Assembly (NCBI GenBank): GCA_012026655.1
Contig: JAAILG010002295.1
Coordinates: forward strand, 1-56,055
Source: Hydrolagus affinis
Taxonomy: Eukaryota
Reading direction: 5' to 3'
Length of the DNA: 56,055 nucleotides
Of this stretch, positions 4,172-38,490 are shown one piece after another. The notes beneath the pieces were generated by a model. The model was not told the DNA's origin, did no database searches, and was given only the letters and a program-made list of their open reading frames with translations. A program made the position numbers and the translations under genes. Numbering within the stretch: the stretch's first letter is position 1; the number at the start of each line of letters is the position of its first letter.

Positions 4172-4343
4172 ATAACAATCCTTTTCTTTTTACCCAGAAT
4201 CTAAAAAAAATAAATTTCTTTCTTATAAACTCATCGTCAACCAGACATCGACGTGACAGAGAAAGGCAATGTCATTGCAAACTTTGTTGTTAAATGCAAA
4301 AGTAGGTTAGTGACTTAAACACAGCAAAAATCACAGTACCTAC

Positions 4344-4582
4344 CAGACAGAGAGGCAGAGGTTAGATTGGGGTCTGAGTGGACGATCCCTTTTATAATTC
4401 ACATGATCTCCTGAGTCAGCGATAAGTCTCGAAAAATGATTACGGCAAAAAAAAACTGATTTGTCTCTCCTTTAATTGGCCGGTCTCTGTCTCCCCTGTG
4501 TAGGGGTGAGTTAATACCCTGTTTCTTGGGAATTCTGGAGTCGAGCTCCAGTCCATATAAGGGACTGGAGAACAGGTGTTCT
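4344..4582 (-). promoter_or_regulatory. MYH16: MYH16 copy A promoter and short non-coding exon 1
   Basis: Splice donor CTG|GTAGGT at 4344/4343, TATAAAA at 4396-4390, CCAAT at 4479-4475, GTTTCTTGGGAATT at 4521-4534, perfect CArG CCATATAAGG at 4553-4562, E-box CAGGTG at 4573-4578. Confidence 0.7.
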
Positions 4583-6704: not shown

Positions 6705-7368
6705 AGTTTCTCCTGGTGTCATGCCCAATAGTAATAATAACAATAATCCTGGCATTAGATATCGCGTCTTCTAGACTGAGTCTCAAAGTGCTTCACAGGA
6801 TACACTGTAAAGTGAATTGACTGTATATATTTGTGGGCGAAACGCAACAGCCAATTGCGCACAGCAGTGTCCCCCCCTCCCTCACCCACACACACACAGC
6901 AGTGTCCCCCCCCCACCACACACACACACACAGCAGCGTCCCTCCCCCACCCACCCACACACACATAGCAGCGTTCCCCCCCTCCCACAAACAATCTATA
7001 ATGAGGACAATATTCCAATAATCCCCACCGGTTAAAATTTAATCACTCAATTCATGGAAGTTTGTGGGGCATTGCCATGTGCAAATAGGTTGCCGTGTCC
7101 ACCTACAAATACACAGTCACTACACTTTGGTGTACATGCTCTGAAGTGCTTTGAGGTGTTTGCCATGATGTGGTGGGGGGTGGGGTGGGGAGGGAGGGGG
7201 AAGAGTGTGTAAGGATTGTTACTACGGTAAAACAATTAGCATTTGCTTTGAGAAATAATTGCAGCCCATTCCCCCACCAGCGTTGTGTTTCAATGGCCCT
7301 AATGTGATGCTTAGCAAAGCTATATTATATTAAGTATCACAGTCATTCCCGTTGGCATGTTTGCCATC

Positions 7369-7545
7369 CCTTATAAGGAGATTCGGCAGACCACACAATT
7401 CCCAAGAAACGCGCTATTAATTGTTCCCTCCACAGGGAACTGAGTGAAACCCAACCAGAACCCAGACGGAGAGAGGCATGTGAAGTTTTTCCATGTGTTA
7501 TTTTAAGTCGTTGCTTGCTCATGAGAATGGGTCAATGTATAAAAG
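7369..7545 (+). promoter_or_regulatory. Inverted MYH16-type muscle promoter module (CArG, AATTCCCAAGAAAC, TATTAA, TATA)
   Basis: CCTTATAAGG at 7369-7378, AATTCCCAAGAAAC at 7397-7410 (exact reverse complement of 4521-4534), TATTAA at 7415-7420, TATAAAAG at 7538-7545. Spacings match promoter A. Confidence 0.6.
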
Positions 7546-8562
7546 AACATTACAGACAGCGATGTCTGCTTCATTTTCTCTCTCTCTCTCTCTCTCTGGT
7601 GGCCGGTCAGGCTTCGAGTGGGGGAAAATCCTGGCGGTCAAGGAGTTTTACCATCATCTCCTTTGACATTAGCTTGTGTGGAGTACGCTAGCCACTTTGT
7701 AATGTAACCAGATCACGCCTCCGTTGAGGGAACTTTCTGCTGAATTACAAACAGTAAGAATCCTGGGGCTGGATCGACCTTCCACCCAAAAGACTTGACG
7801 TTAAAAAAATGTGTCTCGGTTTTTGTGTATTGTTGCGTGCTTCATTCTGCTTTGCTTCCAAGTGCTTGTCTTCGGGGTAATCCACTCACCAGACAAAGGA
7901 ATAAGTTCTTATCCAGATTAACTGGCAGAAATGGGGGAAGCAGTGATTCCCTTTGGCCTGGGGGAGTAAAATGACACAGTGCATCTCATCCAGCAACCTC
8001 TCTGCTCCTCTTTGTGTCTGAAGCATAGAATTACTTTACAGTAAGGCCTTAGAAGGGAGTCAGACTCCCGCTCACCTCAAGAAGCCACTGATGACATTAC
8101 AGTAGAGTACAAGTGTGTTGCAACTCACTGGGCAACGAGGATGGGATTGAAACTATAGCTTGTGTTCAGAGGCTGAAACTAAGTGTCCCCAGTGTTAAAT
8201 TCATATATCAAAATGTAATATTATTGTTGTTTCATTCTCCTTGAATGTGTGTGAACAGTATCTGTGTAGATTTCCACGTTCCCAGTTGCGTCTTAAAAAC
8301 AATCTGCTTCTCATTTAGCTTTTTGCCGACAGAATAAGAAAGAAGAAAAGTCCTGAGCGAGTGAAGCCACCGCATTCTCTACAGAGGGTTTGGATATCGG
8401 ATGGTTTAACCCCATGTTAGCAGTGATTTTGCGCGGTTGCATTAACCCTGAACAAGCCTTTGCTTGCCACTCGTGGTGGACCAGATGGCTAGTCACTGCA
8501 CACAGCGCAGTGAGGATGTATCTCATGACTGACTGTTTCTGCTTGTTTATCTCCTCCAGCGG

Positions 8563-8673
8563 ATGGAGATTCTCACTGCGTCCCGTTTATGGCTTGTTAA
8601 TGTCTTGTTAATGTCTTTGCTGCAATTGACGTCAGAGATTCCCAATTTACTGTCAAACGCATTAAACTGTTAA
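8563..8673 (+). CDS. Candidate 36-aa hydrophobic micropeptide MEILTASRLWLVNVLLMSLLQLTSEIPNLLSNALNC (speculative)
   Basis: Strong acceptor (CTGAC branch-like motif plus pyrimidine tract ending CTCCTCCAG at 8559) lies 3 nt before the ATG. AATAAA at 8726-8731. It lies downstream of the inverted promoter. No homology evidence. Confidence 0.25.
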   Translation: MEILTASRLWLVNVLLMSLLQLTSEIPNLLSNALNC

Positions 8674-9173
8674 GTGGTTACTCTGAGCCGACCAGTATCC
8701 GGACCGGAGTGTTGGACACAAGTATAATAAACACATGAGTAAATGAGGCTGGAATATTGATAGCCCGATGACTTAAATGGTAGTGACAGTTAACGCCAGG
8801 GTCCAGTTATTGGGAGTTTACTGTACATCAATTTAAAATAACTGTGTACGCTTGGTAGAGGTTAAACTCAGAATACGGTGTAATATAGTTTGCAAATATA
8901 GAGCCTTCGGAATTTGGCAAACTCTTAAATATCCAACCTTGAAATTCCTTTTCTTTCTGCAATCATATTGCTTACATTTGATGTACAGTACTGTAGTACC
9001 TGAACATATTGTAATGTCACAAAGCACCTCAGAGTTTAGTTGCAAGGTGCCAGGTACTGGCAAGCTCCCAGCAATGGCCCACAGACATGGAGTGAATGGC
9101 CTCTCATAATTACTGTATAAATCTATGGCCATTTGTTGGCTAAAACACTGGGGGAAATGTCCTCCTCTTTCCC

Positions 9174-11512: not shown

Positions 11513-11587
11513 CATCTCCGTTGTTTTGGAGGAAGCAAAGGCAGAATGCGATTCAGGGAATTGAACTCACAGACACAAAGCAGCTGG

Positions 11588-11844
11588 TTTATTAGCAACA
11601 CTATCTCAGGGATCCTACCTACACCTCAGGGAAATAGGTGTGAAGGAATGCAAGCAGTAAAGCAGTAAGATTATTGCTGTGTGATGGCAAGCAGTAAACA
11701 GATAGTTCATTGAGAACATAAGTAAAGGAGATGGATCAGAGTTTGGTCCATAGGAACATATTCTTCATATGTACCTATGCCCCATACAAGCCTCAACTCT
11801 ATTTCTAACCCACTCTCCCATACGCTATTCTCTCTCTCTCGCTC
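11588..11844 (-). other. MYH16: Putative non-coding terminal 3' UTR exon of MYH16 copy B with polyadenylation signal
   Basis: Donor CTG|GTAAGT at 12060/12059, 17 nt after the stop codon. Acceptor TTACAG|G at 11845/11844. AATAAA at 11593-11588. Confidence 0.5.
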
Positions 11845-13885
11845 CTGTAATTAATAACTTACTAATTCTGTGGGACAGCCTCTCGACGTGAAAGGCGCTG
11901 TATAAATGTAAGTTTTGATTGATTGATTGGTTGATTGGTTGATTGAAGTCACAATAACACAGTATGGCACTATGGTTAATGCTTGGAATGTTATTATTGG
12001 TAGTACTGTAGTATTAATTCATATCATAAAACGCCCAGAAAGAGCATGAGGGGACTTACCAGCTAGAAGATGGAGCTCAGGACTCGGTTGACTTGGAGGA
12101 TGAGGACGTTTTGGCCACTTGGATGATCTCGACCGAGGTGTAGCCTTTGCCATACGCAGCGCGGCTCCTGGTGCGGAGTTTGTTGAGGGTGGATTCCGCT
12201 ATTCCCGCTCTCTCCTCAGCGTCGTCCAGCTCGTGCACTGTGTGCCTGTACTTGGTCAGGCTCTGGTTAGCCTGCTCTTCCTGTGTCCCAGAAAAATCTC
12301 AGCGTTACAATGGAGCCATTGGACTGCGCAGCTTAACTGTTCAACGTAAACACTACCTGACCAAACGTCAATACACCTTTTTAAGATTTAACGATCCTTG
12401 GCATTCGGTACAGCGCCTTGTCACATCACCGAGACTTAGCTGGAAACACGCACTGTAAACTGAACTGACCGTATTTTGTGGGTGAAACATGGCGGCCAAT
12501 TGGCACAGCGGCGTCCAGGTTACACACTTTGATTTGCCAACACATCACTTCAGAGCAACGTTACAACAACTCCTAGGCTTCACCTGACAGCCAGTCAAGC
12601 AGCCTGTACCCCATTGTGAGCTGCATCAGTCCCACGCTTGGTTTGTCTTGACTCTACAAGTTAGCTGCCTCGACTTCACTGTGATGTTCCTATGATGTGC
12701 AAACGCAATACGAGAGGCACTCACGGATTCCTCTATCTGCCTCTTGTAGCTCTTGAGCTTGCCCTGCAGTTTCTCCACCAGCTCCTGCATGCGCTGGTTG
12801 GTTTTGTGGTCTTCCTCAGTCTGGAAGACCAGCTCCTTCAGCCGCCGCTCATTCTTGTGCAGCGCCTTCACCGTTTCAACGTGGCGTTTCTGCTCAACAT
12901 CCAGCTCGCTCTCCATCTCTTTAACCTAAACCGCGGGGAGGGGAGGGGAGGGGAGGGGCAGGTTAAATAAGTAGAGGCACACATGCACATTTGGACAGTT
13001 GTTACCAAGGACAATTCCCTCCACTGTTTGTGTTACGTACCCTGGCCTCCAGCTTCTGAATGATGCGACGGCCTCCCTTGATGACTATTTGTTCGGACTC
13101 TTCCAACTTGACCATCAGGTCCTTGATGTGGAGTTCCTGGTTCTTCTTGGTCTTCTCCAGGTGCATGCAATGGTCCTGCTCCTGCCGCAGCTCCTCCGAC
13201 ATGCGGGTCACCTGCGAACACGACAAAGCGGAGGACGTTTACATCCTCACCACACTGAAAATAACCCCAACTTTACTTATGGCATTAATCTATTTTGTGT
13301 GTGTGTGTGTGTGTGGGGGGGGGGGGGGAGGGGAACCCCCCCCACACAAAATAGTGTCAAATAGACTCGCAGGTCAAGGGCAATACCAACCAGAACAAAG
13401 GTTGCATTGGCTGAGGCACAGAACTCAACTCCAACCGAAGAAGAGCATCTTCCATTGGCATTTCCAATATTCCCTTGTCCAGAACAATAACTGAATGTTA
13501 TTGGTGCTGAATATGGGCTCATCTTGGTTCCAACCCACTGGGCATTGGGACTGGAAACGGTGGGTACACGGACGCTGGATGGGAGAAAGGCACGTTGCAT
13601 TTGGCTGGATGGGGGGGTGTCCCACACTTACATCGACCATGGCTTTCTTTGCCTTCTCATCAGCCACACGGAACTCGTGGATCAGCTCCTCGTACGTGTT
13701 TGTGAGCTGCTGAAAGTCGTACTCCAGCTTCCGCTTGATGGTCACTATGGTTTGGTGCTGCGGAGAGAGATGGCCTGGCCAGTTTAATCACTTCACATTG
13801 GGATTTCCTTTGCAGAAGGCAGACATGAGTTACTGAGCCCTGACTGACGTGTGATCCATCACAGACAATATCCATCAAGGTCCAC

Positions 13886-14210
13886 AATATAATAATATTA
13901 ATAATCCTTGCATTTGATATAGCGGCTTTTCACATCTTATCGATGTCTCAAAGCGCTTCACAGAATACACTGTAAAGTGAATTGACTGTATATTTGTGGG
14001 TGAAACGCGGCAGCCGATTGCGCACAGCAGCGTCCCCCACAAACAGTTGTGGATTGAAATGACCCATTTTATTATTGTGGGGGTTTTTGGAGGGATTATT
14101 ATGAGGCGTGTGGACTAAGGAAACTTGCCCAAGGTTTCGCTCTGATCTGCCTGGATTTGAAACACAGGTCTCAAGCTTGTAAGGCGAGCGCTCTAACCAC
14201 TGAGCTACCT
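13886..14210 (-). mobile_element. Full-length tRNA-derived SINE (shorter head variant)
   Basis: Head GTAGCTCAGTGGTTAGAGCGCTCGCCTTACAAGC with the same core and tail. Confidence 0.85.
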
Positions 14211-14751
14211 TCTGCGGAACGTAATAATCTGTGCATTTAATACACCATGTTTCACATCAGGAAGATGTGTTAAAGCGTTTCACCAGGGTTTACTGTGAAG
14301 TGACTCCTCGAGTATTGGGGTGGGTTTCCGGACAACCCAACTGAGCCCAATAGAGAAAGTTCAGACAAGGGCGAGGTCGGTGTTTACCTGCACGTTGATC
14401 TCATTGTATCTCTCAGTGATTTCAATGATCTCTTGTTCCATCAGTTTGCGAGAGCGTTCGCTGGCCTCCAGGGCGCTGCGGATTTCCTCCAGCTCCGTCT
14501 GCAGCAGGCTGACCCGGCGTTCGGAGAGATTGTACTGCTCACGAAGCTCCTCGTGTTGGCGAGAGTCTTCGTCCATCTGAGTTTGCATCTCCTGAGGTGA
14601 GGGAGGGAACAAAGAATGTGAGGGCGACCAGTCTGGAAATCTTGAACGCACATTTTAATCAACTAAATTCTCAACAGCTTCATAATTATTATCGGGACTT
14701 TAAAGAATTTTTCAAATTTCTGGGTGGGTTGAAAGTTTCCAAATTTATGTA

Positions 14752-15097
14752 TTAATAATAATAATAATCCTTGCATTTGATATAGCGCTTTTCACATCTT
14801 ATTAACGTCTCAAAGCGTTTCACAGAATATACTGTAAAGTGAATTGACTGTATATTTGTGGGCGAAACGCGGCAGCCAATTGTGCACAGCGGCGTCCCCC
14901 ACACAAACAGTCGTGGATTGAAATGACCAATTTTATTATTGTGGTTTGTTTTTGGAGGGATTATTATTAGGCGTGTGGAGTAAGGAAACTTGCCCAAGGT
15001 TTCGCCCTGACCTGCCTGGATTCGAACACAAGTTTCCCCAGCTTGGTCTCCCCAGCTTGCAAGACAAGTGCTCTAACCACTGAGCCACAGGAGCTCC
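14752..15097 (-). mobile_element. Full-length tRNA-derived SINE
   Basis: Same structure as 9174-9521, with B box GTTCGAATCC. Confidence 0.85.
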
Positions 15098-18000
15098 ACA
15101 AATTGTGGATTGATCAATTGAGTAATGACTGTGAGAAATTTGAGACTTTCAAGATATTGATCGAACATCGGACTCAATAACAAGGTTGATTATTGTTGGA
15201 ATAGAATTCTATTAAAATCACCTTGAGCTGCTGCTGGAGTTTCTTGAGGGTTTTGACCAGCTCCGCGTTGTTTTTGTTGGCGTGGTCCAGTTGGATCTCC
15301 ATCTCGTTCAGGTCCGATTCCATCTTCTTCTTCAGCCTGAGAGCCTCAGCGCGTCCCTTGGACTCCACCTCCAGGCTGGCCTGCAGGGACTCAATAGCGC
15401 GTTGGTGGTTCTTCCTGCGAGTGTACATTAAGACACCGTGAAATGGAAATGAAATCATTGAGAGGCATTTTACTGAGGTGGCAGATTCTAAAATGTTCAC
15501 TGTTAACCCGGAGAAGGAGAGAGAGCGCGCGAGGTTACACTGTGTACCTGGTGATCTCGAATTCTTCTTCCTTCTCATGGATCCTTCGGTCAACGTCTGC
15601 CTTGACCTGCGCCAACTCCAGCTAAAGACGGACAATCTTACCTTCTTGGACCTGAAGAGATAGAAACCAATCAGGACACAGCAGCCAGTAACGTGGCTCC
15701 CAGTTCTGACCTGGGTTTCTTTTGTTCTCCCCTCTCCGTTTGAACCTTTCACATCACTTATCGTTCTCGAGGTAAAGTGTCACATTGTAGGCACTTGTTG
15801 GATCTCAACAGGATCAATAACACACCCAGGATGCTCCAAAACTGTACCAACATTTGCGAGTAAAAACTTACTGTCAATTATTATTAATGGGGTGGGGGCG
15901 AGCCTCTCAATCAGTCTAAGTCTTTCAATTGACCTGTTCTTCTGTTGCCACACATCATGTTGGGATTGCCTACGTTACCTCCAATGTAGCTTCACTCTCC
16001 TCCAATGCCAACTGCAGTTCCTCCTTCTCAATCTCTAGCTTCTTCTTTATCTTCTGGAGCTCATGGATGCTCTTCCCACCCTCGCCAAGCTGGTCCACCA
16101 GGTCTTTCACCTCATCTGAAGAGACCACAAAAGAGAGGGTGAGTTCACCAGATTACAGCAGTGGGCATGGCACAGACTTGCCCCCAAGTCATCATCAGTC
16201 AGTCACAGATGGATAAGATGATCCATGGAGTAACTCACAAACTTCAGTCCACACTGGATGTGGGTGGGTGTGAGGGGGAAGTTTAACTCGGTGTCCTGAC
16301 CAACATCTGCCATATTTTTTTAAAAAATGTCGCTCACTTCATGGCTGTTTTGTGGGAAGTTTGTAGGCATTTTGCAGGTGTAGGTCACTATACTCCACAT
16401 TAAATTCTGCAAAGCGCTTTGTGAAATCCCTCCGATGTGAAAGGCACTGCATCAAAAACGCAAGGGTTATTACTAATTACCTTGCAGATTTCTGTTCTCC
16501 TTCCTCACACTCTCCAGCTGGTCCGTAACTTCTTCATACACGGTCTTGAGTTTGTAGACCTCAGTCATGTGGATCCTGCATTCCTTCTGTGAGACGTCTA
16601 ACTGAATCTGTAACTCCTCATACTTCTGCTGCCACTCAGCCAGCGTCTTGTCAAAGACTCGCTGCTTCTTGTCCAGGGCAGCGGCTGCAGCGTTGGCCTG
16701 AAGGAGAGGCCGCAGGAAAACAATTACTAAGAAAAAATCAATTAAAACTTACATTTATATAGCGCCTTTCACGTTGAGACGATGTCCCAAGGCGCTGTAC
16801 AGTCAGGTAGGGACAAGAGCAGAGGGGGAGGGGTCGGGGCAGTATGAAGAAGAGTAGGAAAATTGACTGTATATTTGTGGACAAAAGTCTGTCACACATA
16901 TAGATATAAAACAGCAATATAGTCTGAGGATTGTTTCTCCCAGGGCACTGGGAGAATTGACTTTCTGTTTTTGTATTCGTAGCATCTTTAATACGAAATT
17001 TAGAAGATGTCAATTTGTACCTTCTCCAGTTCAATGGTGAGATCCTCCACCTCCCCAGTCAGTCTCTGCTTAGCTTTCTCCAGACTGGAAGCCCTGGCCT
17101 GGGCTGATTCCGATGTCTCTTCAGCCTCCTGTAGCCTAGCTGCCAGCTTCTTCCTACAGACGGCAACAGAGAGAGAGAGAGTTTTGGAATCTGTACACTT
17201 GTCACATCGCAATCTCACTACTGGTATTTATAGTATGTTATATATTAATCTAGTATGTTATATATTAATCAGGCTGTATATTATAGTATGTGAGGCTGAC
17301 ACTCACTTGGTCTCTTCCAGCTCCTCTGTTCTCTGGATGGCATCTGTCTCATACTTGGTCCTCCATGTGGTGACCTCAGCGTTGAGTTTGGAGATCAGGC
17401 GCTGGAACTCAGACTTGGCCTCTTGCTCTTCATCGAGCTGCTCTCTTATCAGGGCCAAGTCATGCTTGGCATTGGCCAGGCTCACCATAGCCACACTCCT
17501 CACCTGCAGCACAACATCGACAGGATCAGTCACGGAAAGGAGTGTTTGCATTGCTCCTTTCACATTGGGAAAGATGTCTCAAGTCGCTGGGTTTCACTAA
17601 CAAACATTATTTAAGTCTTGTACAGTCTACTAGCAATGACATAATGCTTGTGACTTGCCCTCAGGAAACTCTCTGAAGCAGTTGTCATCTCCCTTTTCAG
17701 CCACATAACTCGCTGATCGATGGGTTAGCCACAAAACCTCCCAAAGTAAGGTTTGCTTTGCTGACTTCTGGTTATTAGTGCAAGTCGCAATGGTTACTGG
17801 CAAATGAAGACACAATTCTGTCCACTGACAGACAGACACTGCAGACTCTTCACAATTGAATTTTATCCCCACGAATGTCTTTATTTCCCTGCAGTTTCAA
17901 ACCTGTGAAATTTCCATGAAATCACAGCCGTAGCAACGGTGCTCGGGTCCCGACCTGATCGTCCAGCGCCTTGGGACGTCCTCCCGACGTGAAAGGCGCT

Positions 18001-18696
18001 CTATCAATGTAATTTTGTTGTCGTCGTTGTTGTTGTTGTTGCTTTGACCTCGGCCTCCAATGTTGTGTTGCTGTGTGTGTGTGTGTGTGCCATCCACCAG
18101 CTCACCAGCGCCGCCACCAGGAGGCCGGTGTGTTGTACAATTGCAGTACCTCCATTGTCCATTGGGAAACTACTATATGCCAATGCTACACTCTCTGAAA
18201 TACTCAATGATTATATTTGAGTCAGTTCCTTTCACATCGGGGTGGAGGGGGAGGGGGGAAAGGCACATCCTGGGATACACTATAAAGTGCATCGACCGTG
18301 TATTTGATTGGCCGACGCAGCAGTCAATTTGGCCGTAGGTGACGTCTGACAAACAGCCACCATGTGAATGAACAAGCTATAGATGACACATGTCTATATC
18401 TGGAGATAATTCGAGAGAAAAATCTGCTGCTCATCAAACACGTCATCGTCACTCTCATCCCCCAAAGAAACTCTGACTCAATCCAGTGAGGAACCGACTT
18501 GGAGCTTGTCTCACCTTTGACTCCTCCTCGGCCTGCCTTTTGAAATCATCCACTTGCGAGCTCAGGGTAGTTTTGATCCTGGTCACCTGGATCAGTCTGC
18601 TGTTGGATTCATCGTACGTTCGGCTCAGCTCACTGTTTTCGGCTAGAATAATAGAAGGTCTGTCTGGTTACGTCTCTACTGAGTCAGTGAATTTCA

Positions 18697-18723
18697 GCAG
18701 CACCACCACCACAACAACAACAA

Positions 18724-18755
<32 letters not shown>
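18697..18755. repeat. Compound (CAC)(CAA)(CAG) trinucleotide microsatellite, intronic
   Basis: Read directly from the sequence. Confidence 0.9.
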
Positions 18756-21700
18756 TGTCCTGTATTCACACAGCCAGACTTCCCGCAGGATAAGGTCTCA
18801 CTGATCTTCACAGTGTCAGGGAATCAACACTGGACGAGGGAAAAGCGGGAAGCTGAGCACAGGTGATCTCGAAGAGGTAGCGTTAAAGGCGTTTAACTGT
18901 GCGATTCACATTGCTATAGTCTGTGCTGGATGTTGTACAGGAGATTTAGCCGGAAAATGGGATCTCCTTACCCCGGAATTGTTTCCCAATGCCGGTTAAT
19001 TCCCAACATCAGTAAATCAGTCCAGATGGGTTTTGCAAAATCTGGATACTTTCCAACAGGGGAAAGATGGGAACAATTTTCTAAAGGTTTGATATCTCCT
19101 CACCAGGCCTCTTCCCACTCAGTAGAGAGTGCCATCAAGGCAACTGGTTTGGGCTTCCTAACTCTGGGAAAGGCCGGTGACCAATTTAGCCTCCCTACCC
19201 AACCCTGCCTGAAACTAGTAAACTCAGGTCTATCCATTAAACAACTAGGACTGGCCCCAATTGTTATGCTTCCAAAACCACCCTTTACATCTGAAAAAAC
19301 ATATTAACTTTCAGATGACACCATATTCACAGGGCCAACACATAGCGGTTCCGTGTTAATTCCTCATTCCCCCTGTCTTGTAACTTTATCACTGCTTCCT
19401 CCCACACACAGACCATTGAAAATAATCCAGCAAAAAATCCAGCATGAACAGCAGCAGCCGTGGCTCCTGGATGGCTGCTTGTGAACTGTAATGAGACTGG
19501 AACAATAGGGACAGATCAAACGCAAAAGAAAACTGAGAGGAAACCAGATCAGTCCAGGAAATTAATTTGTCTGTTTTGACTGTCATTTTTTTAGGGGGCG
19601 CAATAAATTGTGTTACTGTACAGGGCGTTGGGACCAGGGACCAAACACACACCCAGAGGCAAAGAGACATCAAACCTTTTTGGGAAGTTGTTCAAATCTT
19701 GTCCCTATTAGAAACTGAATGAAATTCATGAGTAAGTTGACACAAGACATATAGCTTGCAGGCTGTAAAGTTTGGCTGGTTGAGTTTGTGTGGTCGTCCG
19801 AATGAGTGTGTTAATCTGTGACCTCCAAAGTTCTTAGCTGTTGAAGCACCACTGTCCCGCAATCTCACTTTGTATTAGCCCATCATACCTTACAATTTAA
19901 GACAGTGCAGAATTGAGGGATATTTCTCAAGTTCAGTCTTACTTCAGAAGCCGTTCAGTCCGAGTGCTGGAGAAAAACGCGTTCCAAATTGAGTCTGAAT
20001 TTAAGAACTTTAAGAATTCTGCGGCATTCGACTTGAAGATAAAATGGTGTTGTGTGTGTGTTGTGTGTATGGTGGGGGTACGATAAGATTAAACGTTGTT
20101 CCTTTGACAGCAGATGATTATTAACTGTGCCTAACCGGTGAGCCTGGTTTTCAATCCATTGAGTTCTGTTGTGTTCCTCTCCATTTCAGCGAGTTTAGCA
20201 TTGGCCTCAGCGAGGCTATCCTCCAACTTCCTGACATGCATCTCAGAGTTGGCCTATTGCAGGGGAAGAGCAAGGGATGGTAATTTCCCAGTTATTGAAA
20301 CAATAGAACAACATCAACCCGCAGGAAGAAGCCATCCTCGCACCTGCGTTTGTAGTGTGGAGTATATTTCAAAGAGATTCTCAAAGTTACTGTACAGTGG
20401 TGTGACTGTGCATATGTGTGTCCGAGTCCGGCAGCCAATTTGCTCACTGCAGTGCTCCACAAACAGCGCAATAGTCAATAGTTATTTTATAACCTCGGGG
20501 AATTGTTAGGCAGGACACGCAGAGAAAACTCTCTTCTTTAAGGGAAGGCTTGGAACGAGGAAAGGGTATTTTCACTCTGCCAATCTCTCCCTGCTCCCCC
20601 ACCCCCTCCCACCCCAACCCTCGGGTTCCTTTGGCTTTCTGACCTTGGTTTTCTGCGAGGTCTCTAGGTTGGTGCTCAGGTCGTCGAGCTCAGCTTTCAT
20701 GAACTGCTTGTCCTTCTCCAGTTTGTTTTTGACCCTCTGCAGGTTCTCCACCTGCTCGGCCATCTCGGCCATGGAGTCGGAGTGTTTCTTCCTGAAGGCG
20801 GAGGCGGTGGCCTCGGCCTGAAGCGAGGCTTCCTCCACCTCCCGCCGCAGCTTCAGGAGCTCGATCTCTCGCTTCTTGTTACTCTCGATCTGTGTGGGCA
20901 GAAGAGAAGAGGGGGCAAGAGGGTGGGGGAGGGTAGGTGGGGGTGGGGGAAGGAGGGGAGATGTGTCAGCCCACCCAAAATATGGCGTACTGTAGGGGAA
21001 ACGTCAAACTGTCGCCATATGTGTGACAACTGTGATGCACAAGTCAGATTTTTGTACAGTTGATGTTACTGTATATAAAATACACTTCAATATCAATGCA
21101 CCAGGCAGCTAATGGTGTTCCGAGGTCTTGTATGACAACGACAACAAAACACCAACATAAAATAACTGCTGTGCGCTTTGTAGGATGAAACCTCTATCAC
21201 AAGGGTGGGGAGGGGCTGGTGTACGGAGTACCTGGGCCACCGTGGCACCACCAGCTTCCTCCAGTCTGTCGTTCAGATCCTCCAACTCCCGCGAAAGCTC
21301 AGCTCTCTGCTTCTCCACCTGAACACATCAGAAAAGCGGGAACATCAGATACCTTTGGCACTTTGGACTAGCTAAGCACAACCTGCTGCCTCTCCACAAC
21401 AGTCCAGTGGCCTAGATTGGCAGCAGTAACACTGACCCAGGGGTGGACCAACACACTCACACACTCTCACACACACTCACACAGTCTCACACACACAAAC
21501 ACTCTCTCTCACACACAGTCAGTGACTGATTTCTCTTGTCAGTATAGTTGATAGTACAGTCCTATTGGGTTAAAAAAAAATGAGTTCCCATTTTATGCAA
21601 GACATGAAAGGTTTCCTAATTATAGAAACAATGGCAGAGGGACAGGAGGGTGGGATTAGTCAGGTCAAAGGGCCTTCTTCACCAGAACCCAATTATTGTA

Positions 21701-22577
21701 TGTGATACAAAACAGTTTGGAACACTTTTCAGTTCTAGTGCAAAGGACAAATGTTTAGTTACACCCTGCCCTGGGCTCACCTTGGATTTCATGTTACGCT
21801 CTGCCTCAAGCTCCTCTTCGAGCTCTTCAATGCGTGCCTGGGAATCAGAGAGTAGCCCATTACCATACAATTCCCTCCCAAGTCATCACAGATTAACATG
21901 TCACAGTTCCCAGCATCTGGGCTGGACTGTACCTGATGCTCCTTGAATTTCCTGTGCAGTGTGGTATTCAGTGACTGTTCATCTTCCCACTTGCTGTTGA
22001 CAGAATTAATCTCCAGTTCCTTCCTGTAACGAACAAAAGGCATCTGAAGGGCTGGGCACAGAACCACGGGTCAAAAGCATCACAGTTGGCAAATAGTTGG
22101 GGGGGAAACGATTCGTAACGGAAGCTTTTAATGTTTCCACCAGATCTGGGAAGGCTTGTCTTCTCAGAAAATTTGTTGGTGGCTTCGTTTTCCAGATAAT
22201 TCGGCGACTACAGATTCACGGAACCCTCTACCATTCTCAAAGTGCGTCAGTACAAAGTTTATTTTATGCACGTTTCACTGGCTAGAGGACGAGGCTGTTA
22301 GGCTGCCTTGTCTATCAGGCGAGTTCGCTCACAGACGTAGGTTACACACTTTTTGAGCACCTCCTCCAGATCAATCTTGGAACGCTCCATATCATTCAGG
22401 TTATCGATAGTCATTCTCAGGTCTCCCTCAGCCTTCCGCCGGGCCTTCTCCACCTCGGCCCTGATCTTCTTCTCCTGGCTCCAATTGTCTTCCAGCTGCC
22501 AATTCAACACAATGTGTTAACGGTGAAGGAGAGTTTGGTGTTATCCCCACCGCACACAGGCACATGTTGAGAACACT

Positions 22578-22760
22578 TAAAATCATAGGATCTTACAGCA
22601 CAAAAGGAGGCCATTCGGCCCATCAAGTCTGTGCCCTGGCTCTTCGAAAAGAGCAACTCAATCCCACTCCTCAGCTCTCTCTCTCTCTCTCCCCATAACC
22701 TCGCAAACCCGTCCTCCCCAAATAAACGTCTACCTCTCTTTTTAAAATGTCTACCTCTCT
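22578..22760 (-). mobile_element. CR1 LINE 3' fragment
   Basis: GGAGGCCATTCGGCCCATC...GTCTGTGCC, similar to 37010-37070. Confidence 0.7.
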
Positions 22761-23117
22761 TAGGGGGCAACTGAAGAAAAAAAAAGGTCACCTGCGTCCC
22801 ATTACCTCTTGGATCTGAGAGTTCAGTTTGCTGTTGCTCTTGGTGAGGTGGTTTACTTTATCTTCCTCGGCTTGAAGGTCGTCCAGTGTTTTCTACAGAG
22901 AGAAAGAGTGGTGGCCGAGAGTGAACGATGTGGTGATGTGACCCTGGAATGGATCCCCGGTTGAACGCGGTTAGCGGACGGTTTGACCGTCAGTGTCGCA
23001 CCTTACCTGGTACAGTTCCTCCAAGGCTTTCTTTTCCTTTATTAGCTTGGCAATGGTGTCGTCACGCTGACTGACATCCTGAATCAGGGAGCGCACTCGT
23101 TTGTCCAGCGACTGCCA

Positions 23118-23167
23118 GAGGGAGGGAGGGAGGGAGGGAGGGAGGGAGGGAGGGAGGGAGGGAGGGC
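23118..23167. repeat. (GGGA)n microsatellite
   Basis: Serves as the polypyrimidine tract for the minus-strand exon 23111-23007. Confidence 0.9.
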
Positions 23168-24769
23168 ATGAGAACAAGGTTATTAAAGGTTGAAGAGAAA
23201 CAAGGTATTGTCAATTACAGAAGGACACAATCAGATCCATGGGTTGGGTTTTATCGGTTTAAAAAAAGGTCGGTGAATGATTAGAAATAAGTGGATACGT
23301 TGAGACCACTGTTTTTCCCGTGATTTACAACAACAACAAAATGATATTGACAGAGCAGCTCATGTTCTGAAGCGCTGAATCAGAGGATTCCCAGGATGGA
23401 GTTCCAGAGAGTGGGGGCTGAGAGGCTGAGAACCCTTTCTGGCTCAACCCCAGCTGAGTGGAAGATCAGCAATCCCTAGCGCAGGAGAGAATGGTACCTG
23501 CTTTTCTTTCTCCGTTTTGGCCAGAGTCATCTCCAGAGCCTCCAGGTCACGCTTGAGGTCGGTTGTCTCCTCCTCCAGCTTCCTCTTGGTGGCCGATATA
23601 CTAGAGGAGATGTTCTCCTCCTCTTCCAGCCTCTCCTTCATCTCGGACATTTGGCTTTCTAGGTTAATCTTGCTTTTCATCAGCTGAGTGCATTTCTCCT
23701 CCGCGTCAGACATGTTGTCTTGCTCCTAGAACCACAGAAACATAAAAATTTAACAGAGCAGAAGTAAGCTTTTCGACCTGTTGCGTCCATCCTGGATCTT
23801 TTTTAAAAAAAACAATCCCTTTATTCCCATTCGCAGAAAGTAATTGGGCAGGTTCAACTGGTTTGGGTTCTTGTTGAATACTCGCTGGCTACTTACTGCC
23901 CGCAGTTGTATTTTGAGATCATTATTCTCTTGGGAGAGACTAGCTGTCTTCTCCTCCAGATCCTTCAAGCGTGCAAGTATCTCTTTGGTCTTCTCCAACG
24001 CTGTCCTTAGTTCCTCCTCTTTCTGCTTCATGTCTTCATCTTGACGAGCCACGTTGAGCAGAGGCTTGACCTGTGGGTATTTCCAAGGGCAGTGTAAGAG
24101 TTCCAGTAAACAGCCACAAGGTGTTGGATTATACTATCCATGTTTAATTTGCAGTAGCTTTACTGTAAGCCTGTGCTAGTGTCCCCTCTAAAAACAGGCT
24201 CAGTGGAGGCTGATAGTACAACACAATTCCTCTGGGATACTCACCTTAGTGTACAGCTTCCACCAACCCCAGTAACGCAGTTGTAGGAATTTGCGAATGT
24301 TTCGCTGAATGACAATCAGTGCTATCCTGCAAACAAAGTAGAGAAATTGTTAGAGAAACTCTGGAAGCCCAAACCCTAATGAGTAGGTTGTCTCTAGCTG
24401 GACAAGCGGTGGGAAGCTTTTGCAATGGTTTTGAGTTGGTTAAACTCTAGTAGTGACCCCACCCGCACACATTTGTCGGGTCCCCAACAACCTTTGACTC
24501 CTGACAAATTGCACCTAATTCTTCCTGTGATTAAGTAAACAGGGAGTGTGTCCACAATAAATAATAATAATAATCCTTGCATTTGATATCGCGGCTTTTC
24601 ACATCTTATCGACGTCTCAAAGCGCTTCGCGGAATATACTGTAAAGTGAATTGACTGTGTATATTTGTGGGAGAATCGCAGCAGCCAATTAAACATAAAA
24701 CATTTTAAAAAATTAAACACTGAACGTAAAGAACAACAGCATCAACTTGCATTTACAGAACACTTGAAC

Positions 24770-24928
24770 ATTTTCAAGGCTGAGACTGATAAATTTATTT
24801 TTAAAAATAGAGGGATTAGGGGATATGGGGATAGGGCAGGTAATTAGAGTTAGGTGAGAATCAGCCATGAGGCTCGAGGGGCTAAATGGCCTACTCCTGC
24901 TCCGACTTCTTATGATCTTAAGTTCTTA
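24770..24928 (+). mobile_element. CR1-like LINE 3' fragment (second subfamily)
   Basis: GGGCTAAATGGCCTACTCCTGCTCC followed by a TTCTTATGATCTTA tail. A reverse-orientation relative lies at 26780-26920. Confidence 0.6.
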
Positions 24929-26779
24929 ACACCCTTCACATGGGTCAGTGTTTCAGGTCTCACCTTGTGTCCAGCATCCTCTTAAACTCCTTGCGCATCA
25001 GATTACCACGTAATCGACACTGCAACATTGTCAGGATCTTCGCCAGGCGATCGTCGCGCATGTCTTCCAATTTAGCCAAGACCCCAGCCCGGAAAAACAC
25101 CTTCACAACAGAGAGAATAATAACAATAATACTACATTATTATTATTATCGTTATTATAGAGAATACACATGAATGAGCATTTGCCATCCTTATCGAGAG
25201 TAATTTCCTGCTTATTGGCACAACTACTTCTTGTGGTATCAGCGCTTTGTGACATAAAGGCGCTATATAAGTGCAATTTTGTTGTTGTATTTCATAATAC
25301 TGTGGTAATAATGTTTGCATTTGACAGGGCTTACATCACCTGAGACTCCACCACTCTAAACACATAAATAGAGTAATTCTAGACTTGTCTGTCTGTTCTA
25401 CCACTGGGCAGCAATTCCCTTTGCAACATTAAGATTGTGCAGAATTGTTTTCCAATACAGTGCTAATCTGGAAATATATATAGTTTTTATACAGTTCTTA
25501 TAAAGAAACTGGTTTCCAAATCCCGACTGGACTGAAAGAAAAGATTCCACAATTCTGCGCCTTCTTAAATTTAAGGCCAGACCATCTGGTCTCCAGTTTT
25601 ATTGCCATCGGGAAAGGCATCAACGATACCATTTAGTATTTTGCATAAACACGATTTGAAATAAGAAGCTGTATGTCTGGTGCTTTCCGCCGCTCACCTT
25701 TGTGTGTCCAATTTTGTACTCGTTTTCCTCCAGACCAAGCGTGCCCAGCAGAAGGTCTGAGGCCTTCTTGTTGTCAATGAAACCCTTGGGGATGACGTTG
25801 GGGTTCAGGATGTAGTACCTGAGCAACCACAAAACACCTTTTCAAACACCAAGTTTGTCTGATGTGACTTGCGCTTTTCAAACATATTCTAACCATAAAC
25901 TAAATCTAGAAATTGCATTCGTCAAGCGTTTCCACCTCACGACCACAACCGATCTTAGATTAGATCCTTGCCTTTGACAGAGCGCCTTATTATCATTGCC
26001 ATTGATGTCTCAAAACAGCTTCACAAAATATCATTTCTGATTTATTATAATCCCTGCGTGTGATGTGCCTGTAAAATACGCGAACGTCTTGAAGAGCTCT
26101 TCCGGGTTTACTGCAAAGTCTCGTGTTGCGGCCGTGTATTTTGTAGGCGAACGGGGCGGATGGGGGGAGGGGGGGGGAGGTGGTGGGAAAGTTTCAGTCT
26201 CGGACTCACCGCTGTTTAAACTCGGGATACTGCAGCCTGTTGGGGAACCCTTTCCTGCAGATTCTGATTCCCTCCAACACACCATTGCAGGCCAGTTGGT
26301 GGAGGATCAGGCCGGCGTCCACCGCACCTGGAGGAAGTGACTCATTGCTGACCAGACTCACAGCTTTTTCCTGACGCTCACTATCGTCCGCCACTCACAC
26401 TTTGGAGCCAAGAAACGTGATACATTTGCATTGTGTGCCCGTACCTTACATCGAGGCCCAACCTTCCACCTTGGCATCTGTCTGACCCCCTCTCACCCAA
26501 AATATTTCAGTTTCAAATTTCAGATTTCTCCAATTGGTTGTGGGAAATCTGTACATTTGGCCTAAATATGGAACAAGTTTGTTTTTTATGAACCAAAATC
26601 CATTTGCTGAGAGGGTTATTTGACGGCAGATCTCACTCTATTCTTTAGAAAAAAAACCTTCTTCATTCCAATTGCAAAGCTCCTGGAATCTATGACTTGC
26701 TGGCTACATTCACTGCAACATAACCGGAGAGAAACTGTAGGCAGTTCATGCTTAGTGTGTGAGATGAGCTGGTTTTTTT

Positions 26780-26920
26780 TTAGGAATTAGGAGCAGGAGT
26801 AGGCTATTCAGCCCCTCAAGCCTGCCCCCCGCCATTCAATAAAATCATGGCTGATCTTCTAATCTAACTCCGCCTGCTCCCCCTTATCTCCATATCCCTT
26901 AATAACCTCTACCCTTTAGA
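26780..26920 (-). mobile_element. CR1-like LINE 3' fragment
   Basis: GGAGCAGGAGTAGGCTATTCAGCCCCTC...ATCATGGCTGATC. Confidence 0.6.
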
Positions 26921-27049
26921 AAGCCTTGTTGGAGAGTGATTCTGCCGTCCGCCCTACCTGACTGCTTGTTCTCGTTCGGTACGATGCAGCGGACAAAGTG
27001 GGGTGCCGTGCTGCGGAGTGTGGTCATCAGCTTGTTCAGCTGCTCCTGT

Positions 27050-27128
27050 GCTGAGAGACAGTGAGGGAGGGACAGTGAGGGAGAGACAGTGAGGGAGAGA
27101 CGGTGAGGGAGAGACGGTGAGGGAGAGA
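27050..27128. repeat. Tandem repeat of about 14-16 nt (GAGAGAC[A/G]GTGAGGGA)
   Basis: About five copies directly adjoining the acceptor of MYH16-B exon 27045-26958. Confidence 0.85.
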
Positions 27129-29459
27129 TGAACCCACACCAGCCACAGTTCTGAAAGAATCCTCTCGTCGTCTTCCATTGTACAAATTGTCCACCCCACT
27201 AAACAGAGCGGAAGGTGGGAGCAAGGTACACAACTATTCTTCGTTTAAGAACAAGGGCACTCTTTAATGTTCTCGACCTATCCTAGCAGCCTTTGATTCT
27301 CCCACTCCCTCCAACCATCCCCCACCCCCCCCCCCACCACCACCCACTCCCATTGGCGGAATCAATCAATGACAACTGACGCAGAGAAAGCTTGTTGCTC
27401 TTACCCGGTAGAACGCAGACACGGTCTGGAAGGAAGCTCCTTTCTTCTGTTTTTTGGTGGTACCTGTGGATGAGGAACACACGAGGAATATTTAAAATCA
27501 GGTTTATATACTTCAAGCCGCTACCGGCGACAGATGCCCACGGACGCCACAGAGAGTACGGCCCTGATTCAGATCAATCAATACACGGTGTGACTCACAG
27601 CGTTTTTTTTTTAGGGATTATTATTAGGTGTAATTATTATTTCTCGTGTGCTCTGAGGAAAGGAATACATTGAATAACTCACCTTTGGCTTCTTCTTCTT
27701 TGAAGAGAGTGGCTAATATGTTCATGGAAGACTTCTGGAACAAGCCCACCACTGTTTCGTTCAGGGGATCCTTATTTTTCTCCAGCCACCCTTGGGTGCT
27801 GTACCCAACCTTGAGATGTGAGGAGAATGAAGGTGGAGCATAGATTGAGAATCACAGAGAACATACAACGTGGTTGGAAAACACAATGAACGGAAATATT
27901 TGGTGAAATCCTGATGGATACTCACATTGCCCGCGTAGTGCACCAGCTCAAACGTGGCCTCTGCTCCCTTGCCTTTGCCACCTTTGGGTTTCAGGAAGTT
28001 GTTGGACTTGCCCAGGTGATTGTCGTACAGGGCAGACTTGAACGTGGCGTCCGTGGCCTTCGGGAACACGCACTGCTCCTCCAGGATGGAGAAGATTCCC
28101 ATGGGCTGCAAATACATCGTCAACAAGGACAACAAATGACATCTGTGCAGCGCCTTTCGCGTCAGGAGAACGTCCCAAATACAAATACATCCCCAAACAC
28201 AGACGGTCAAATGCAAGGATTATCCTTGTTATTATTATTATATGAAACAATGTTCCCGGCAGTTTGGTTACAGAAATTGGAGAGCAGCAAACTGACCTTC
28301 TCCAGCAGCTCGATGCAGGCCTGCAGGTCCATGCCAAAGTCAATGAACACCCATTCGATCCCTTCCTTCTTGTACTCCTCCTGTTCCAGGACGAACATGT
28401 GATGGTTGAAGAATTGCTGCAGCTTCTCGTTGGTGAAGTTGATGCAGAGTTGCTCAAAGCTGTTGGACTGTGGGACGGAGGGAAAAGGCAGAGCAGAGAA
28501 TGAGGCTCCCTTTCTACCCAAGATTGCTCTTAATTCGTAACCTTTTTATAGCATATGAGCAGATAGAGAAGACCATGGGGCAAACGCCCACTGAATAAGT
28601 ACATTTCCCCTCTTCTCTCTTAAATATGCCATTCGATTTTGCCTCTACAGCCTTTACTGTCCAATCTTAAAATTTTAAGTCAAAAGAAGGTCCGGCCTTG
28701 TGAATGCAACCCAATGTTTTTAATGTGCTATTTTAAAATATTTAATGTTAAAATATTTATATATACACCACACTGGAGTGGATAGTCCGTCCAAAAAAAC
28801 AACACAATAATAAAAAAAATTGGTCATTTTCAATCCACGACTGTTTGTGGGGTGGTGGGGGGACACACTGCTGTGCGCAATTGGCTGCCGAGTTTCGCTC
28901 GCTCGCCAAAGTCAATTCACTTTACAGTATACTCTGTGAAGCGCTTTGAGATGTCGATAAGATGTGAAAAGCCGTTATATCAAATGCAAGGATTATTATT
29001 ATTATTATTATTATTATAGCAGACGGAGTCGGAAGCAAGATTCCAAAGAAATTGCACCAAGCGAGAGGCACTGTTGTAAACTGTATGTTAACTGGGAGAT
29101 TTCTATCAAAACTGCCAAAGGATTAGCTGCCAAAACGTGCATTGTGAAATCCTGTGTCACAGTGGGGAAGATCAGTGCCAACGTCTCCATTACCTGAGCA
29201 TAGCATCAAGCATTACTGTTGACACGGGGCTGCCAGTAAACCTTTACCTCAAAGATTTCAAAGCCGGCAATGTCCAGCACGCCTATAAAGTGCTGACGCT
29301 GCATCTTAGTGTCCAAGGTCTTGTTAATTCTTACAACCATCCACTTGAACATTTTATCGTAGACGGCTTTTCCTAGGGCACCAACTGAGTTGGAGCACTG
29401 AGAAAGAGAGAGAGTAATAACAAGATTATTACCAGCAGTGAATAGAATTCCAACCACAG

Positions 29460-29862
29460 TAAAATGACACTTGTGTAGACAGCGCCTTTCACGTCTGGAG
29501 GACGTCCCAAGATGCTGGACGTCCTTGTTTCAGACCCGAGCTGGGATCGGGGACAGAGAGGGTGGAGGGAAAGGTGGGGGATTTGGGGTGACCGATAGGA
29601 CCATCAAAGAGGAGGGTCTCGAGATGCGACTTGATGGAGGTTGGTGAGGGGGCGAGGTGGAGGGACTGTGGGATGGAGTTCCGGAGTTGGGGACAGAGTG
29701 GCTGAAAGTGGGATGGTTGGTTGGGAAATGTGGAGCAGGCCGGAGAGGAGGGCAGGTCACTGAGCAGAGGGAGCGGGCAGGTCGGTAGAGGGTTAGGACA
29801 TGGCAGAAGTAGGGTGGGGCGAGGCCATGGAGGGCTTTGAATGTGAGACCAAGAGTGCCCAA
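29460..29862 (-). mobile_element. L2-type LINE 3' fragment
   Basis: Peptide LTFKALHGLAPPY...YRPARSL is typical of the L2 ORF2 C-terminus. The 3' end GGGACGTCCTCC..ACGTGAAAGGCGCT is shared with many short copies. Confidence 0.75.
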
Positions 29863-31869: not shown

Positions 31870-32165
31870 ACACAAGATTAGTGAATTGTTGTTAACTCTG
31901 TTGTTGTTTGTATGGTTGTTGTTGTTGTTGTTGTAGCTTGAATGCGTCGGGAAATATGAATTTTCATGCTGAGGATTGTGAAACTGGAAGGTAACGTCTC
32001 CGATTTCCAGAGAGCGGGTGCGCGGGAATGGTTGAAAGCCACGGCGCGCCAACGGTGGGGGCAGATAGGGCCGTGGACACCAAGACAGACAGGGTTTGCT
32101 GGGTGAAGGGAGCAGCCGGGTCCTTGTAGGGGGTTGAAATGAAAGATGTAAACTCAGGAGGTGGT
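31870..32165 (-). mobile_element. L2-like LINE 3' fragment (other subfamily)
   Basis: Purine-rich ORF2-end-like sequence (PYKDP...PTVGA) next to a (GTT)n tract. Confidence 0.45.
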
Positions 32166-32679
32166 GGGGGGGGGCGGGGTTTCACAAACATGTCCTGCAG
32201 ATGTATCTCAGATTATAGACCAACGGGAAGGCTACATGAAACGCTGAGCTTTGGATATGATGAAATAGGGGGAAAGACTTACAAAACGTGACGAGTTGTT
32301 GTTCCTGGTGGTCTTGGCGTTACCAAAGGCCTCCAGCACAGGGTTAGCCTGGATGATTCGATCCTCCAGGGAGCCCTACATTAACAGAAAGAAGAGAATT
32401 ACACAAACAAAAGAATGACACAGTCTGTCAGAATGAGTAAACGCACGACACTTGGATTGGAACAGCCAGCCTGCTCCTTTAGCTCCAACCTCCAAAGCAA
32501 AATAAGAAAGGTTCACACATCGGCTGCCATCACACATTGTGCCACTGGGTGCTGTCCCTGTAACCATTGAAAGGTAAAGAGATAATACCGAGGTTGTTTC
32601 CCTGTAGGTTGGTTGATAATATGGCAGCAGCAAACTGGGCGGGAGATTAAGCTTGCTGCTTCTAAAACACATTTAGAAC

Positions 32680-38265: not shown

Positions 38266-38490
38266 CAGAGATAGAAACAGAAGCTGCTGTGAAACAACAC
38301 TCTGGATCCCACCTTTTATCCTCTTCAGTTTCCCTAGAGGAAACAATAATTATTAAAACAAGTAGTTAGAAAAAATCTTTTGGCATGACCCAGGATGGTT
38401 CTGATTGGCCTAACCTGGAGGTCTCCGTGGATGGTTCATTTAGGTCATGTTTCTTGGGAGTTCTACAATTCAGTTATGTCCATATTGGGA
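38266..38490 (-). promoter_or_regulatory. MYH16: MYH16 copy B promoter and non-coding exon 1
   Basis: Donor CTG|GTAAGT at 38266/38265, TATA-like GATAAAAG at 38320-38313, CCAAT at 38408-38404, GTTTCTTGGGAGTT at 38449-38462, CArG-like CCATATTGGG at 38480-38489. Spacing matches the copy A promoter. Confidence 0.65.

What the first reader, a model, noticed from the sequence alone, without database searches (positions are those of the whole stretch)
7369..7610. A third, inverted copy of the MYH16 promoter architecture between the two genes
Seen: promoter A read on the minus strand is CArG, N18, AATTCCCAAGAAAC, N4, TATTAA, then TATAAAA about 125 nt from the motif. At 7369 on the plus strand there is CCTTATAAGG, N18, an identical AATTCCCAAGAAAC, N4, TATTAA, then TATAAAAG 128 nt on (7538). 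A pyrimidine-rich stretch ending CTCTG|GT (7598) follows, as in both MYH16 first exons (GTCTG|GT and CTCTG|GT). The spacers differ, so only motifs and spacing are kept. Inference: this is a conserved SRF-containing muscle promoter or enhancer firing away from copy A, with no myosin behind it. It could be a relic of an inverted duplication that was co-opted.
Basis: partly seen in the sequence, partly recalled or inferred. Interest (0 to 1): 0.75.

Follow-up and report, generated by a model that had tools for sequence, protein, structure and literature searches.

The report
Flipped orphan jaw-myosin promoter copy
Between two old duplicate jaw-myosin (MYH16) genes of a chimaera-type fish lies a 240-base flipped copy of their promoter with no myosin behind it; it likely still works as a muscle switch for the neighbouring gene and might send RNA backwards toward the other gene.

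Summary
7363-7600 (+) is a true inverted paralog of the MYH16 core promoter plus first exon: a profile built from promoters A and B alone finds it at E=2.7e-17. Homology is colinear over about 240 nt, not motifs only, and no myosin remnant follows. Both genes are MYH16, with separate orthologs in elephant shark, so the gene pair likely predates crown chimaeras (about 173 Ma). Copy C keeps the CArG box, the 14-mer, their spacing and the TATA box. It has lost the CCAAT box and the original splice donor; a good donor sits 7 nt downstream. Evidence for selection is suggestive, not decisive: neutral retention P about 0.001-0.005, but block and relative-rate tests are null. Best reading (0.45): an orphan promoter kept as an enhancer or short non-coding RNA promoter for gene A. 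Rivals: dead relic (0.25), antisense switch into gene B (0.2). Activity and cross-species conservation are untested. New variant of a known kind; interest 0.45.

The parts
7363..7600 (+). Copy C: inverted paralog of the MYH16 core promoter and non-coding exon 1
   Evidence: nhmmer profile of promoters A+B only, E=2.7e-17; B alone E=3.5e-5; A-C 135 of 234 aligned columns identical
7369..7378 (+). Perfect CArG box CCTTATAAGG (SRF-type site; consensus from established knowledge)
   Evidence: one of 4 perfect CArG boxes in the window
7397..7410 (+). 14-mer identical to promoter A; core TCCCAAGAAAC invariant in A, B and C; binding factor unidentified
   Evidence: three-way run of 11, permutation P=0.0007
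7415..7420 (+). TATTAA, shared with A, not with B
7451..7455 (+). Decayed CCAAT box (CCAAC; A and B both have GGCCAAT here)
7538..7545 (+). TATA box TATAAAAG, identical to A
7571..7577 (+). Initiator-like TCATTTT 35 nt after the TATA start; predicted start site about 7568-7573
   Evidence: Inr consensus recalled
7599..7604 (+). Decayed homolog of the exon-1 splice donor (GTGGCC against GTAGGT in A and GTAAGT in B)
   Evidence: PWM score -0.3; A 5.0, B 7.8
7606..7611 (+). Candidate replacement donor GTCAGG, 7 nt downstream
   Evidence: score 7.0, real donors median 7.9; chance of such a site within 10 nt about 0.05
8560..8731 (+). Candidate terminal exon: acceptor before 8560, 36-codon ORF 8563-8673, poly(A) hexamers at 8661 and 8726 (predicted only)
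   Evidence: ORF has no convincing look-alike
4335..4573 (-). Promoter A and exon 1 of MYH16 gene A, head-to-head with C, CArG boxes 2.8 kb apart
   Evidence: first coding exon 3333-3536
38257..38500 (-). Promoter B and exon 1 of MYH16 gene B (degenerate CArG, 13 of 14 of the 14-mer)
11570..35668 (-). MYH16 gene B body: ATG 35668, stop 12077-12079, predicted UTR-only last exon with AATAAA at 11588; its 3' end faces C about 4 kb away

Best explanation
Copy C is an old inverted duplicate of the MYH16 core promoter and first exon with no detectable myosin gene body behind it, and it is likely kept by selection as a promoter-like enhancer that would be switched on in muscle together with gene A and would make a short non-coding RNA pointing away from A. 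Shown: homology, orientation, kept and lost elements, no detectable coding remnant, age of the A/B gene pair. Inferred steps: SRF binds the CArG box and an unidentified factor binds TCCCAAGAAAC at a fixed 18-nt spacing; TBP binds the TATA box and transcription starts near 7568-7573; the RNA is spliced from the donor at 7606 or left unspliced, and ends at one of five plus-strand poly(A) hexamers (8661-10469) before reaching gene B; the effect is in cis on promoter A, 2.8 kb away, as a second copy of the same binding module. C probably split from the A lineage (A-C is the closest pair in 4 of 4 alignments).
For: Paralogy. Homology has the same limits in all three pairs (about -34 to the exon-1 donor), and flanks align in no pair (upstream 31-61 of 100 shuffles as good, intron 17-72 of 100). 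Motif positions 29 of 30 identical to A against 8 of 22 in the two fixed spacers. Non-motif A-C identity is 100 of 191 (0.52) where the aligner gives 0.43 for shuffled sequence, close to A-B fourfold-site identity (24 of 48 differ). Binding sites and TATA are kept (28 of 31) while CCAAT and donor decayed (11 of 17), the pattern expected when the gene is gone but the promoter is used (split made after seeing the data). The gene pair is shared with elephant shark. Promoter/enhancer interconversion is documented (PMC6172195 abstract).
Against: Over all blocks defined from A and B alone, C keeps 46 of 63 positions (0.73) against 0.71 expected, P=0.44; the triplet column test is also null (P 0.41-0.77 in 4 alignments). 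Both tests are equally null for A and B, so they have little power. Relative rate 39 vs 30 changes, P=0.28, fits constraint and neutrality alike. With all five shared elements counted, 39 of 48 are kept, P=0.03-0.10. If C is younger than assumed (d=0.20-0.25) the corrected neutral P rises to 0.03-0.08. CCAAT and the original donor are lost. No MEF2, MCAT or strong E-box match within 300 nt of C (recalled consensus). CpG o/e is 0.41 at C against 0.81 at A and 0.49 window-wide. Past constraint does not prove present function.
Confidence: 0.45

Rival explanations
1. Dead relic: C is what remains of an inverted third MYH16 copy or a partial duplication, now decaying without function.
For: CCAAT box and donor lost; block test and triplet test show no excess retention; C has 39 private changes against 30 in A; poly(A) hexamers downstream at background level (5 against 3.7 expected).
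Against: Intact CArG, 14 of 14, exact N18 and N4 spacing and TATA at about 50% non-motif identity; three-way invariant run of 11 (P=0.0007); homology limits coincide with those of the two gene promoters.
Confidence: 0.25
2. Antisense switch: C drives a long RNA that reads through into gene B from its 3' end and represses B when A is on, as proposed for the mammalian MYH7/MYH6 and MYH2/1/4/8 intergenic antisense promoters.
For: Layout matches: tandem genes, promoter in the intergenic space, head-to-head with the downstream gene and antisense to the upstream gene (PMC3795307 passages; PMC1876213 passages; PMC4502549 passage). C shares A's version of the motifs rather than B's, which would couple it to A. 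TATA is kept in a directional position. Candidate plus-strand donors continue to 11908.
Against: About 4 kb and five poly(A) hexamers lie between C and the end of gene B. Opposite expression of A and B is not known. In the reviews read, the mammalian mechanism rests largely on correlation.
Confidence: 0.2
3. C is the promoter of a small spliced gene (exon 1 to 7605, exon 2 from 8560) encoding a 36-residue hydrophobic peptide.
For: Donor 7.0, acceptor 9.2 (best between 7600 and 10200), first ATG of such a transcript at 8563, poly(A) hexamers at 8661 and 8726.
Against: Best Atlas score 0.76, below any meaningful level; weak start context; the ORF holds an 11-nt tandem duplication; 43 plus-strand acceptors pass the same cut-off in 4.5 kb.
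Confidence: 0.05
4. Chance match, convergence or assembly artefact.
For: An N gap lies between A and C (6605-6704).
Against: E=2.7e-17 with a profile that excludes C. C is inverted relative to gene B on gap-free sequence. The gap is flanked by identical 99-nt copies in the same orientation. Contigs of other runs cover 7404-7797 with 0 differences (X10) and 7202-7383 (X11). C differs from A at about 42% of columns, so it is no collapsed or doubled read.
Confidence: 0.02

Closest known systems
Mammalian myosin-cluster intergenic antisense promoters (beta-antisense between MYH7 and MYH6; aII, xII, bII NATs in the fast cluster)
   Same: Tandem sarcomeric myosin genes with an intergenic promoter that faces away from the downstream gene and toward the 3' end of the upstream gene; similar scale (4.5 kb intergenic in rat against about 7 kb here). 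Source: passages of PMC3795307, PMC1876213, PMC4502549, PMC10300182.
   Different: Different gene (MYH16) and lineage (holocephalan), so an independent origin is inferred. Here the element is a separate inverted paralog of the myosin promoter with its own CArG and TATA; the reviews describe a bidirectional promoter. No transcript is shown here. The primary papers were not held; I recall, unverified, that the bII NAT start region may resemble a myosin promoter.
Repurposed promoter/enhancer (P/E) elements (Carelli et al. 2018, PMC6172195)
   Same: A promoter that may change role, with turnover of 5' splice and poly(A) signals (abstract); C lost its original donor and has a candidate new one.
   Different: That study compares orthologous elements between mammals and finds mostly enhancer-to-promoter changes; C is a duplicated, inverted copy beside its parent, and its activity is untested.
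MYH16 (masticatory myosin) genes and their promoters
   Same: Genes A and B are MYH16 by best hits and tree; C is homologous to their core promoters.
   Different: C has no detectable coding exons. The review read treats the cis-elements of craniofacial myosin genes as unresolved (PMC11050549 passages).

Membership tests
Paralog of the MYH16 core promoter | Significant colinear homology to bona fide MYH16 promoters | tested here: met
   E=2.7e-17 with A+B profile, next best hit E=0.55; 0 of 300 shuffles for A-C and B-C
Paralog of the MYH16 core promoter | Parent genes are MYH16 | tested here: met
   Best hits elephant shark myosin-16 and myosin-16-like; 192 of 210 and 188 of 212 identical residues; 100/99 support each
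Paralog of the MYH16 core promoter | All elements shared by A and B are intact | tested here: not met
   11-mer and ATAAAA kept, CArG as in A; CCAAT box and exon-1 donor decayed
MYH intergenic natural-antisense promoter | Lies between tandem myosin genes, oriented antisense to the upstream gene | tested here: met
MYH intergenic natural-antisense promoter | Makes an RNA that overlaps the upstream gene | not testable with these tools
   No RNA data could be laid; about 4 kb and five poly(A) hexamers intervene
MYH intergenic natural-antisense promoter | RNA level follows the downstream gene and opposes the upstream gene | not testable with these tools
   Needs expression data from chimaera muscle
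MYH intergenic natural-antisense promoter | Conserved between species | tested here: inconclusive
   Laid contigs are either near-identical (X10) or about 1.8% diverged and cover only flanks and the CArG end (X11)
Repurposed promoter/enhancer element | Active chromatin or enhancer activity without a stable mRNA | not testable with these tools
   No chromatin or reporter data
Repurposed promoter/enhancer element | Purifying selection on binding sites after loss of the gene | tested here: inconclusive
   For: (run test). Null: triplet; blocks; relative rate
Unprocessed MYH16 pseudogene | Recognisable remnants of coding exons behind the promoter | tested here: not met
   blastn and tblastn of 7000-12000 gave no myosin match; exon-2 profile has no hit there, and local scores are not above controls in 8 of 8 settings

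The most novel reading that the evidence does not exclude
Chimaeras built an antisense switch for their duplicated jaw myosins by flipping a copy of the myosin promoter itself: whenever gene A is on, the inverted twin of its promoter fires through gene B and silences it. This would be an independent invention, possibly over 170 million years old, of the intergenic antisense control proposed for mammalian heart and fast-muscle myosin clusters, with its origin still readable in the sequence.
Probability: 0.2. Interest if true: 0.75.

Novelty: new variant of a known kind. Interest (0 to 1): 0.45.

Why it matters
Three copies diverged by 40-50% isolate a candidate MYH16 control module (CArG, 18 nt, TCCCAAGAAAC, TATA about 125 nt on). 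The cis-control of craniofacial myosin genes is described as unresolved (PMC11050549), so this gives a short motif to test. If C is active, it shows how an intergenic antisense promoter or enhancer can arise in one step, by inverted duplication of the gene's own promoter, which couples it to the same factors from the start. If it reaches gene B, myosin isoform switching by antisense RNA arose independently in a cartilaginous fish. If C is dead, the value falls to the motif footprint and the dating of a chimaera MYH16 pair.

Tried and rejected
No whole genome is held, so a genome-wide count of the composite was replaced by prokaryote and metagenome scans; their 6 loci (L004 and L005 show the same sequence) score 24.5-35 against C, where A scores 79 and B 51.5: chance hits. 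Sequencing runs: no RNA holder listed, which is no evidence on expression. Laid contigs (4 of 15 listed runs): X5 gave only repeat matches; X13 covered 7814-7963 and 8029-8179; X11 had no cover at 7384-7606, which proves nothing; X10 was near-identical. Conservation of the core could not be judged. Rfam at gathering threshold: only 2 tRNA-like hits (32679, 39403), no microRNA or other RNA near C. Pfam: no family for 5 of 5 plus-strand ORFs tested between 7377 and 10403. Exon-2 remnant at 8500-8730: 6 to 171 of 250 control tiles score as high across 8 settings, and the A and B alignments disagree; not accepted. Triplet, block and relative-rate tests were null. The bacterial promoter scan is irrelevant to this organism. 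Motif scans with recalled consensus: no MEF2 or MCAT at any promoter; TTC-N4-GAA (STAT6-type) in A and C but not B; MEF3-like site in B only; none accepted as the 14-mer's factor. Four look-ups of earlier scan findings returned nothing. Primary antisense-myosin papers not held.

Full report
1. Observation. Promoter A on the minus strand has the same layout. The 14-mer occurs exactly twice in the window and once with one mismatch, at promoter B. Base composition predicts 2.4e-11 composites per window. A relaxed pattern gave 2 loci in 596 Gb of prokaryote genomes and 4 in the metagenome collection, none like C beyond the pattern. These collections are not vertebrate DNA, so they stand in only roughly for a genome-wide count.

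2. Setting. Two myosin genes lie in tandem on the minus strand: gene B (ATG 35668, stop 12077-12079, predicted last exon ending near 11570) and gene A (ATG 3536, running off the window). Their best hits are elephant shark myosin-16-like for B and myosin-16 for A. Over the first five coding exons, A matches P0121 at 192 of 210 residues and B matches P0003 at 188 of 212, and each pair has 100/99 support in a 12-row tree (10 of the 121 proteins then held were used). The two elephant shark proteins have consecutive accessions and contigs of the same length, so they are probably neighbours there too. The window is therefore inferred to come from a chimaera other than Callorhinchus, and the A/B duplication to predate crown Holocephali, dated at 173 Ma (95% HPD 148-214) in PMC11521621 (passages). 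Fourfold sites differ at 24 of 48 positions outside exon 4.

3. What C is. C is a real paralog, not a set of convergent motifs. A profile built from promoters A and B only finds 7363-7600 at E=2.7e-17, next hit E=0.55; promoter B alone finds it at E=3.5e-5. A-C aligns over about 190 nt with z=16.3, and the stretch between TATTAA and TATA aligns on its own (A-C 17, B-C 2, A-B 257 of 1000 shuffles). Identity is 135 of 234 (A-C), 121 of 239 (B-C) and 129 of 238 (A-B) in one alignment, and A-C is highest or tied in count in all four. No pair aligns upstream of the CArG or in intron 1. No myosin remnant was found behind C by blastn, tblastn or an exon-2 profile. It is not an assembly artefact: C is inverted against gene B on gap-free sequence, and contigs of other runs cover 7404-7797 with no difference (X10) and 7202-7383 (X11).

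4. Kept and lost. Kept: perfect CArG, the 14-mer, exact spacing, TATTAA, TATA, and an initiator-like site at 7571-7577 (consensus recalled). Lost: the CCAAT box shared by A and B (now CCAAC) and the exon-1 donor (score -0.3 with a matrix from 42 donors of the window; A 5.0, B 7.8). A donor scoring 7.0 lies at 7606, with a chance of about 0.05. Six poorly placed donor calls were dropped before building the matrix; the acceptor matrix (47 sites) still holds some mis-called sites. Promoter B itself lacks a perfect CArG and TATTAA, so C resembles A more than B does.

5. Is it under selection? For: 29 of 30 motif positions match A against 8 of 22 in the two fixed spacers (motifs picked after the fact). 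The three-way invariant run of 11 has permutation P=0.0007. Non-motif identity is 100 of 191 where shuffled sequence aligns at 0.43, so real divergence is deep. Homology ends at the same places as between the two gene promoters. Against: C keeps 46 of 63 positions in blocks defined by A and B, against 0.71 expected (P=0.44); the triplet test is null in 4 of 4 alignments; relative rate 39 vs 30, P=0.28; all five shared elements together 39 of 48, P=0.03-0.10. The null tests are also null for A and B and so have little power. I put long-term constraint at about 0.7; present activity is untested.

6. Mechanism. Inferred, not shown: SRF at the CArG (established knowledge of CArG boxes) and an unknown factor at the 11-mer open C in the cells that use promoter A. 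C then acts as a second copy of the module 2.8 kb upstream of A and starts a plus-strand RNA near 7570. Five poly(A) hexamers lie between C and gene B (8661, 8726, 9597, 10349, 10469; 3.7 expected), so a short RNA is the default (0.45). Read-through of 4 kb would make it antisense to gene B (0.2). A dead relic takes 0.25. A 36-residue peptide from an exon at 8560 takes 0.05: the splice sites are plausible but the peptide has no look-alike.

7. Comparison with known systems. It is laid out like the mammalian myosin intergenic antisense promoters: beta-antisense in the 4.5-kb MYH7-MYH6 interval, and the aII, xII and bII transcripts of the fast cluster (passages of PMC3795307, PMC10300182, PMC4502549, PMC1876213). 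It meets the layout criterion; the transcript and expression criteria are untestable here, so it is not filed as a member. The difference is that C is a separate inverted paralog of the gene's own promoter, in another gene family member and lineage. It also resembles repurposed promoter/enhancer elements (PMC6172195, abstract and three passages). PMC8604348 (passages) added nothing. Ten library searches (listings and abstract starts only) showed no paper on a chimaera MYH16 pair or this element; one search returned 0 papers. The library lacks most subscription papers, including Rinaldi 2008 and Pandorf 2012. I recall, unverified, that a mammalian NAT start region may resemble a myosin promoter, which would make the origin by inversion less new. 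No supplements were read.

8. Verdict. Observation confirmed; interpretation partly supported. New variant of a known kind, interest 0.45; 0.75 if the antisense switch is real. The cheapest decisive test is the same interval in elephant shark.

Noticed in passing
window 1576-1754 and 34240-34418 (-): The third coding exon of genes A and B plus 19 nt of the next intron are 176 of 179 identical, while three of the other four compared exons are 74-81% identical: likely a recent gene-conversion tract between old paralogs.
   Followed up: partly
window 3560-3625 (-): In gene A the site matching gene B's exon-2 acceptor (CTTTGCAG) reads CTTTGCGT; a good acceptor about 30 nt upstream (TTACAG, near 3600) probably replaces it.
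   Followed up: partly
window 11570-12079 (-): Gene B's stop codon is followed by a GTAAGT donor near 12059 and a predicted UTR-only last exon from about 11844 with AATAAA at 11588.
   Followed up: partly
window 6506-6803: The 100-N gap is flanked by identical 99-nt copies (6506-6604 = 6705-6803), so it is probably a false gap from an unmerged overlap.
   Followed up: yes
window 38257-38500 (-): Promoter B lacks a perfect CArG and TATTAA but has a MEF3/Six-like GAAACATGA overlapping the 14-mer end (consensus recalled); the two MYH16 genes may have diverged in regulation.
   Followed up: no
window 46600-46854 (+): Importin-beta-binding domain exon (Pfam IBB, E=4.3e-13): an importin-alpha gene beside MYH16, as with KPNA7 in mammals (synteny recalled).
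   Followed up: partly
window 35208 and 52636: Two further perfect CArG boxes, one in the intron after gene B's first coding exon; neither carries the 14-mer at the fixed spacing.
   Followed up: no
window 9606-9719 (+): Two weak, non-significant hits of the promoter profile (E=0.55 and 48).
   Followed up: no
window 32679-32746 and 39403-39474; repeat families at 5133, 6726, 9179, 13889, 14750 and others: tRNA-like Rfam hits at the ends of a dispersed repeat family, consistent with a tRNA-derived SINE; a further high-copy repeat at 8727-8826 contains the first AATAAA downstream of C.
   Followed up: no
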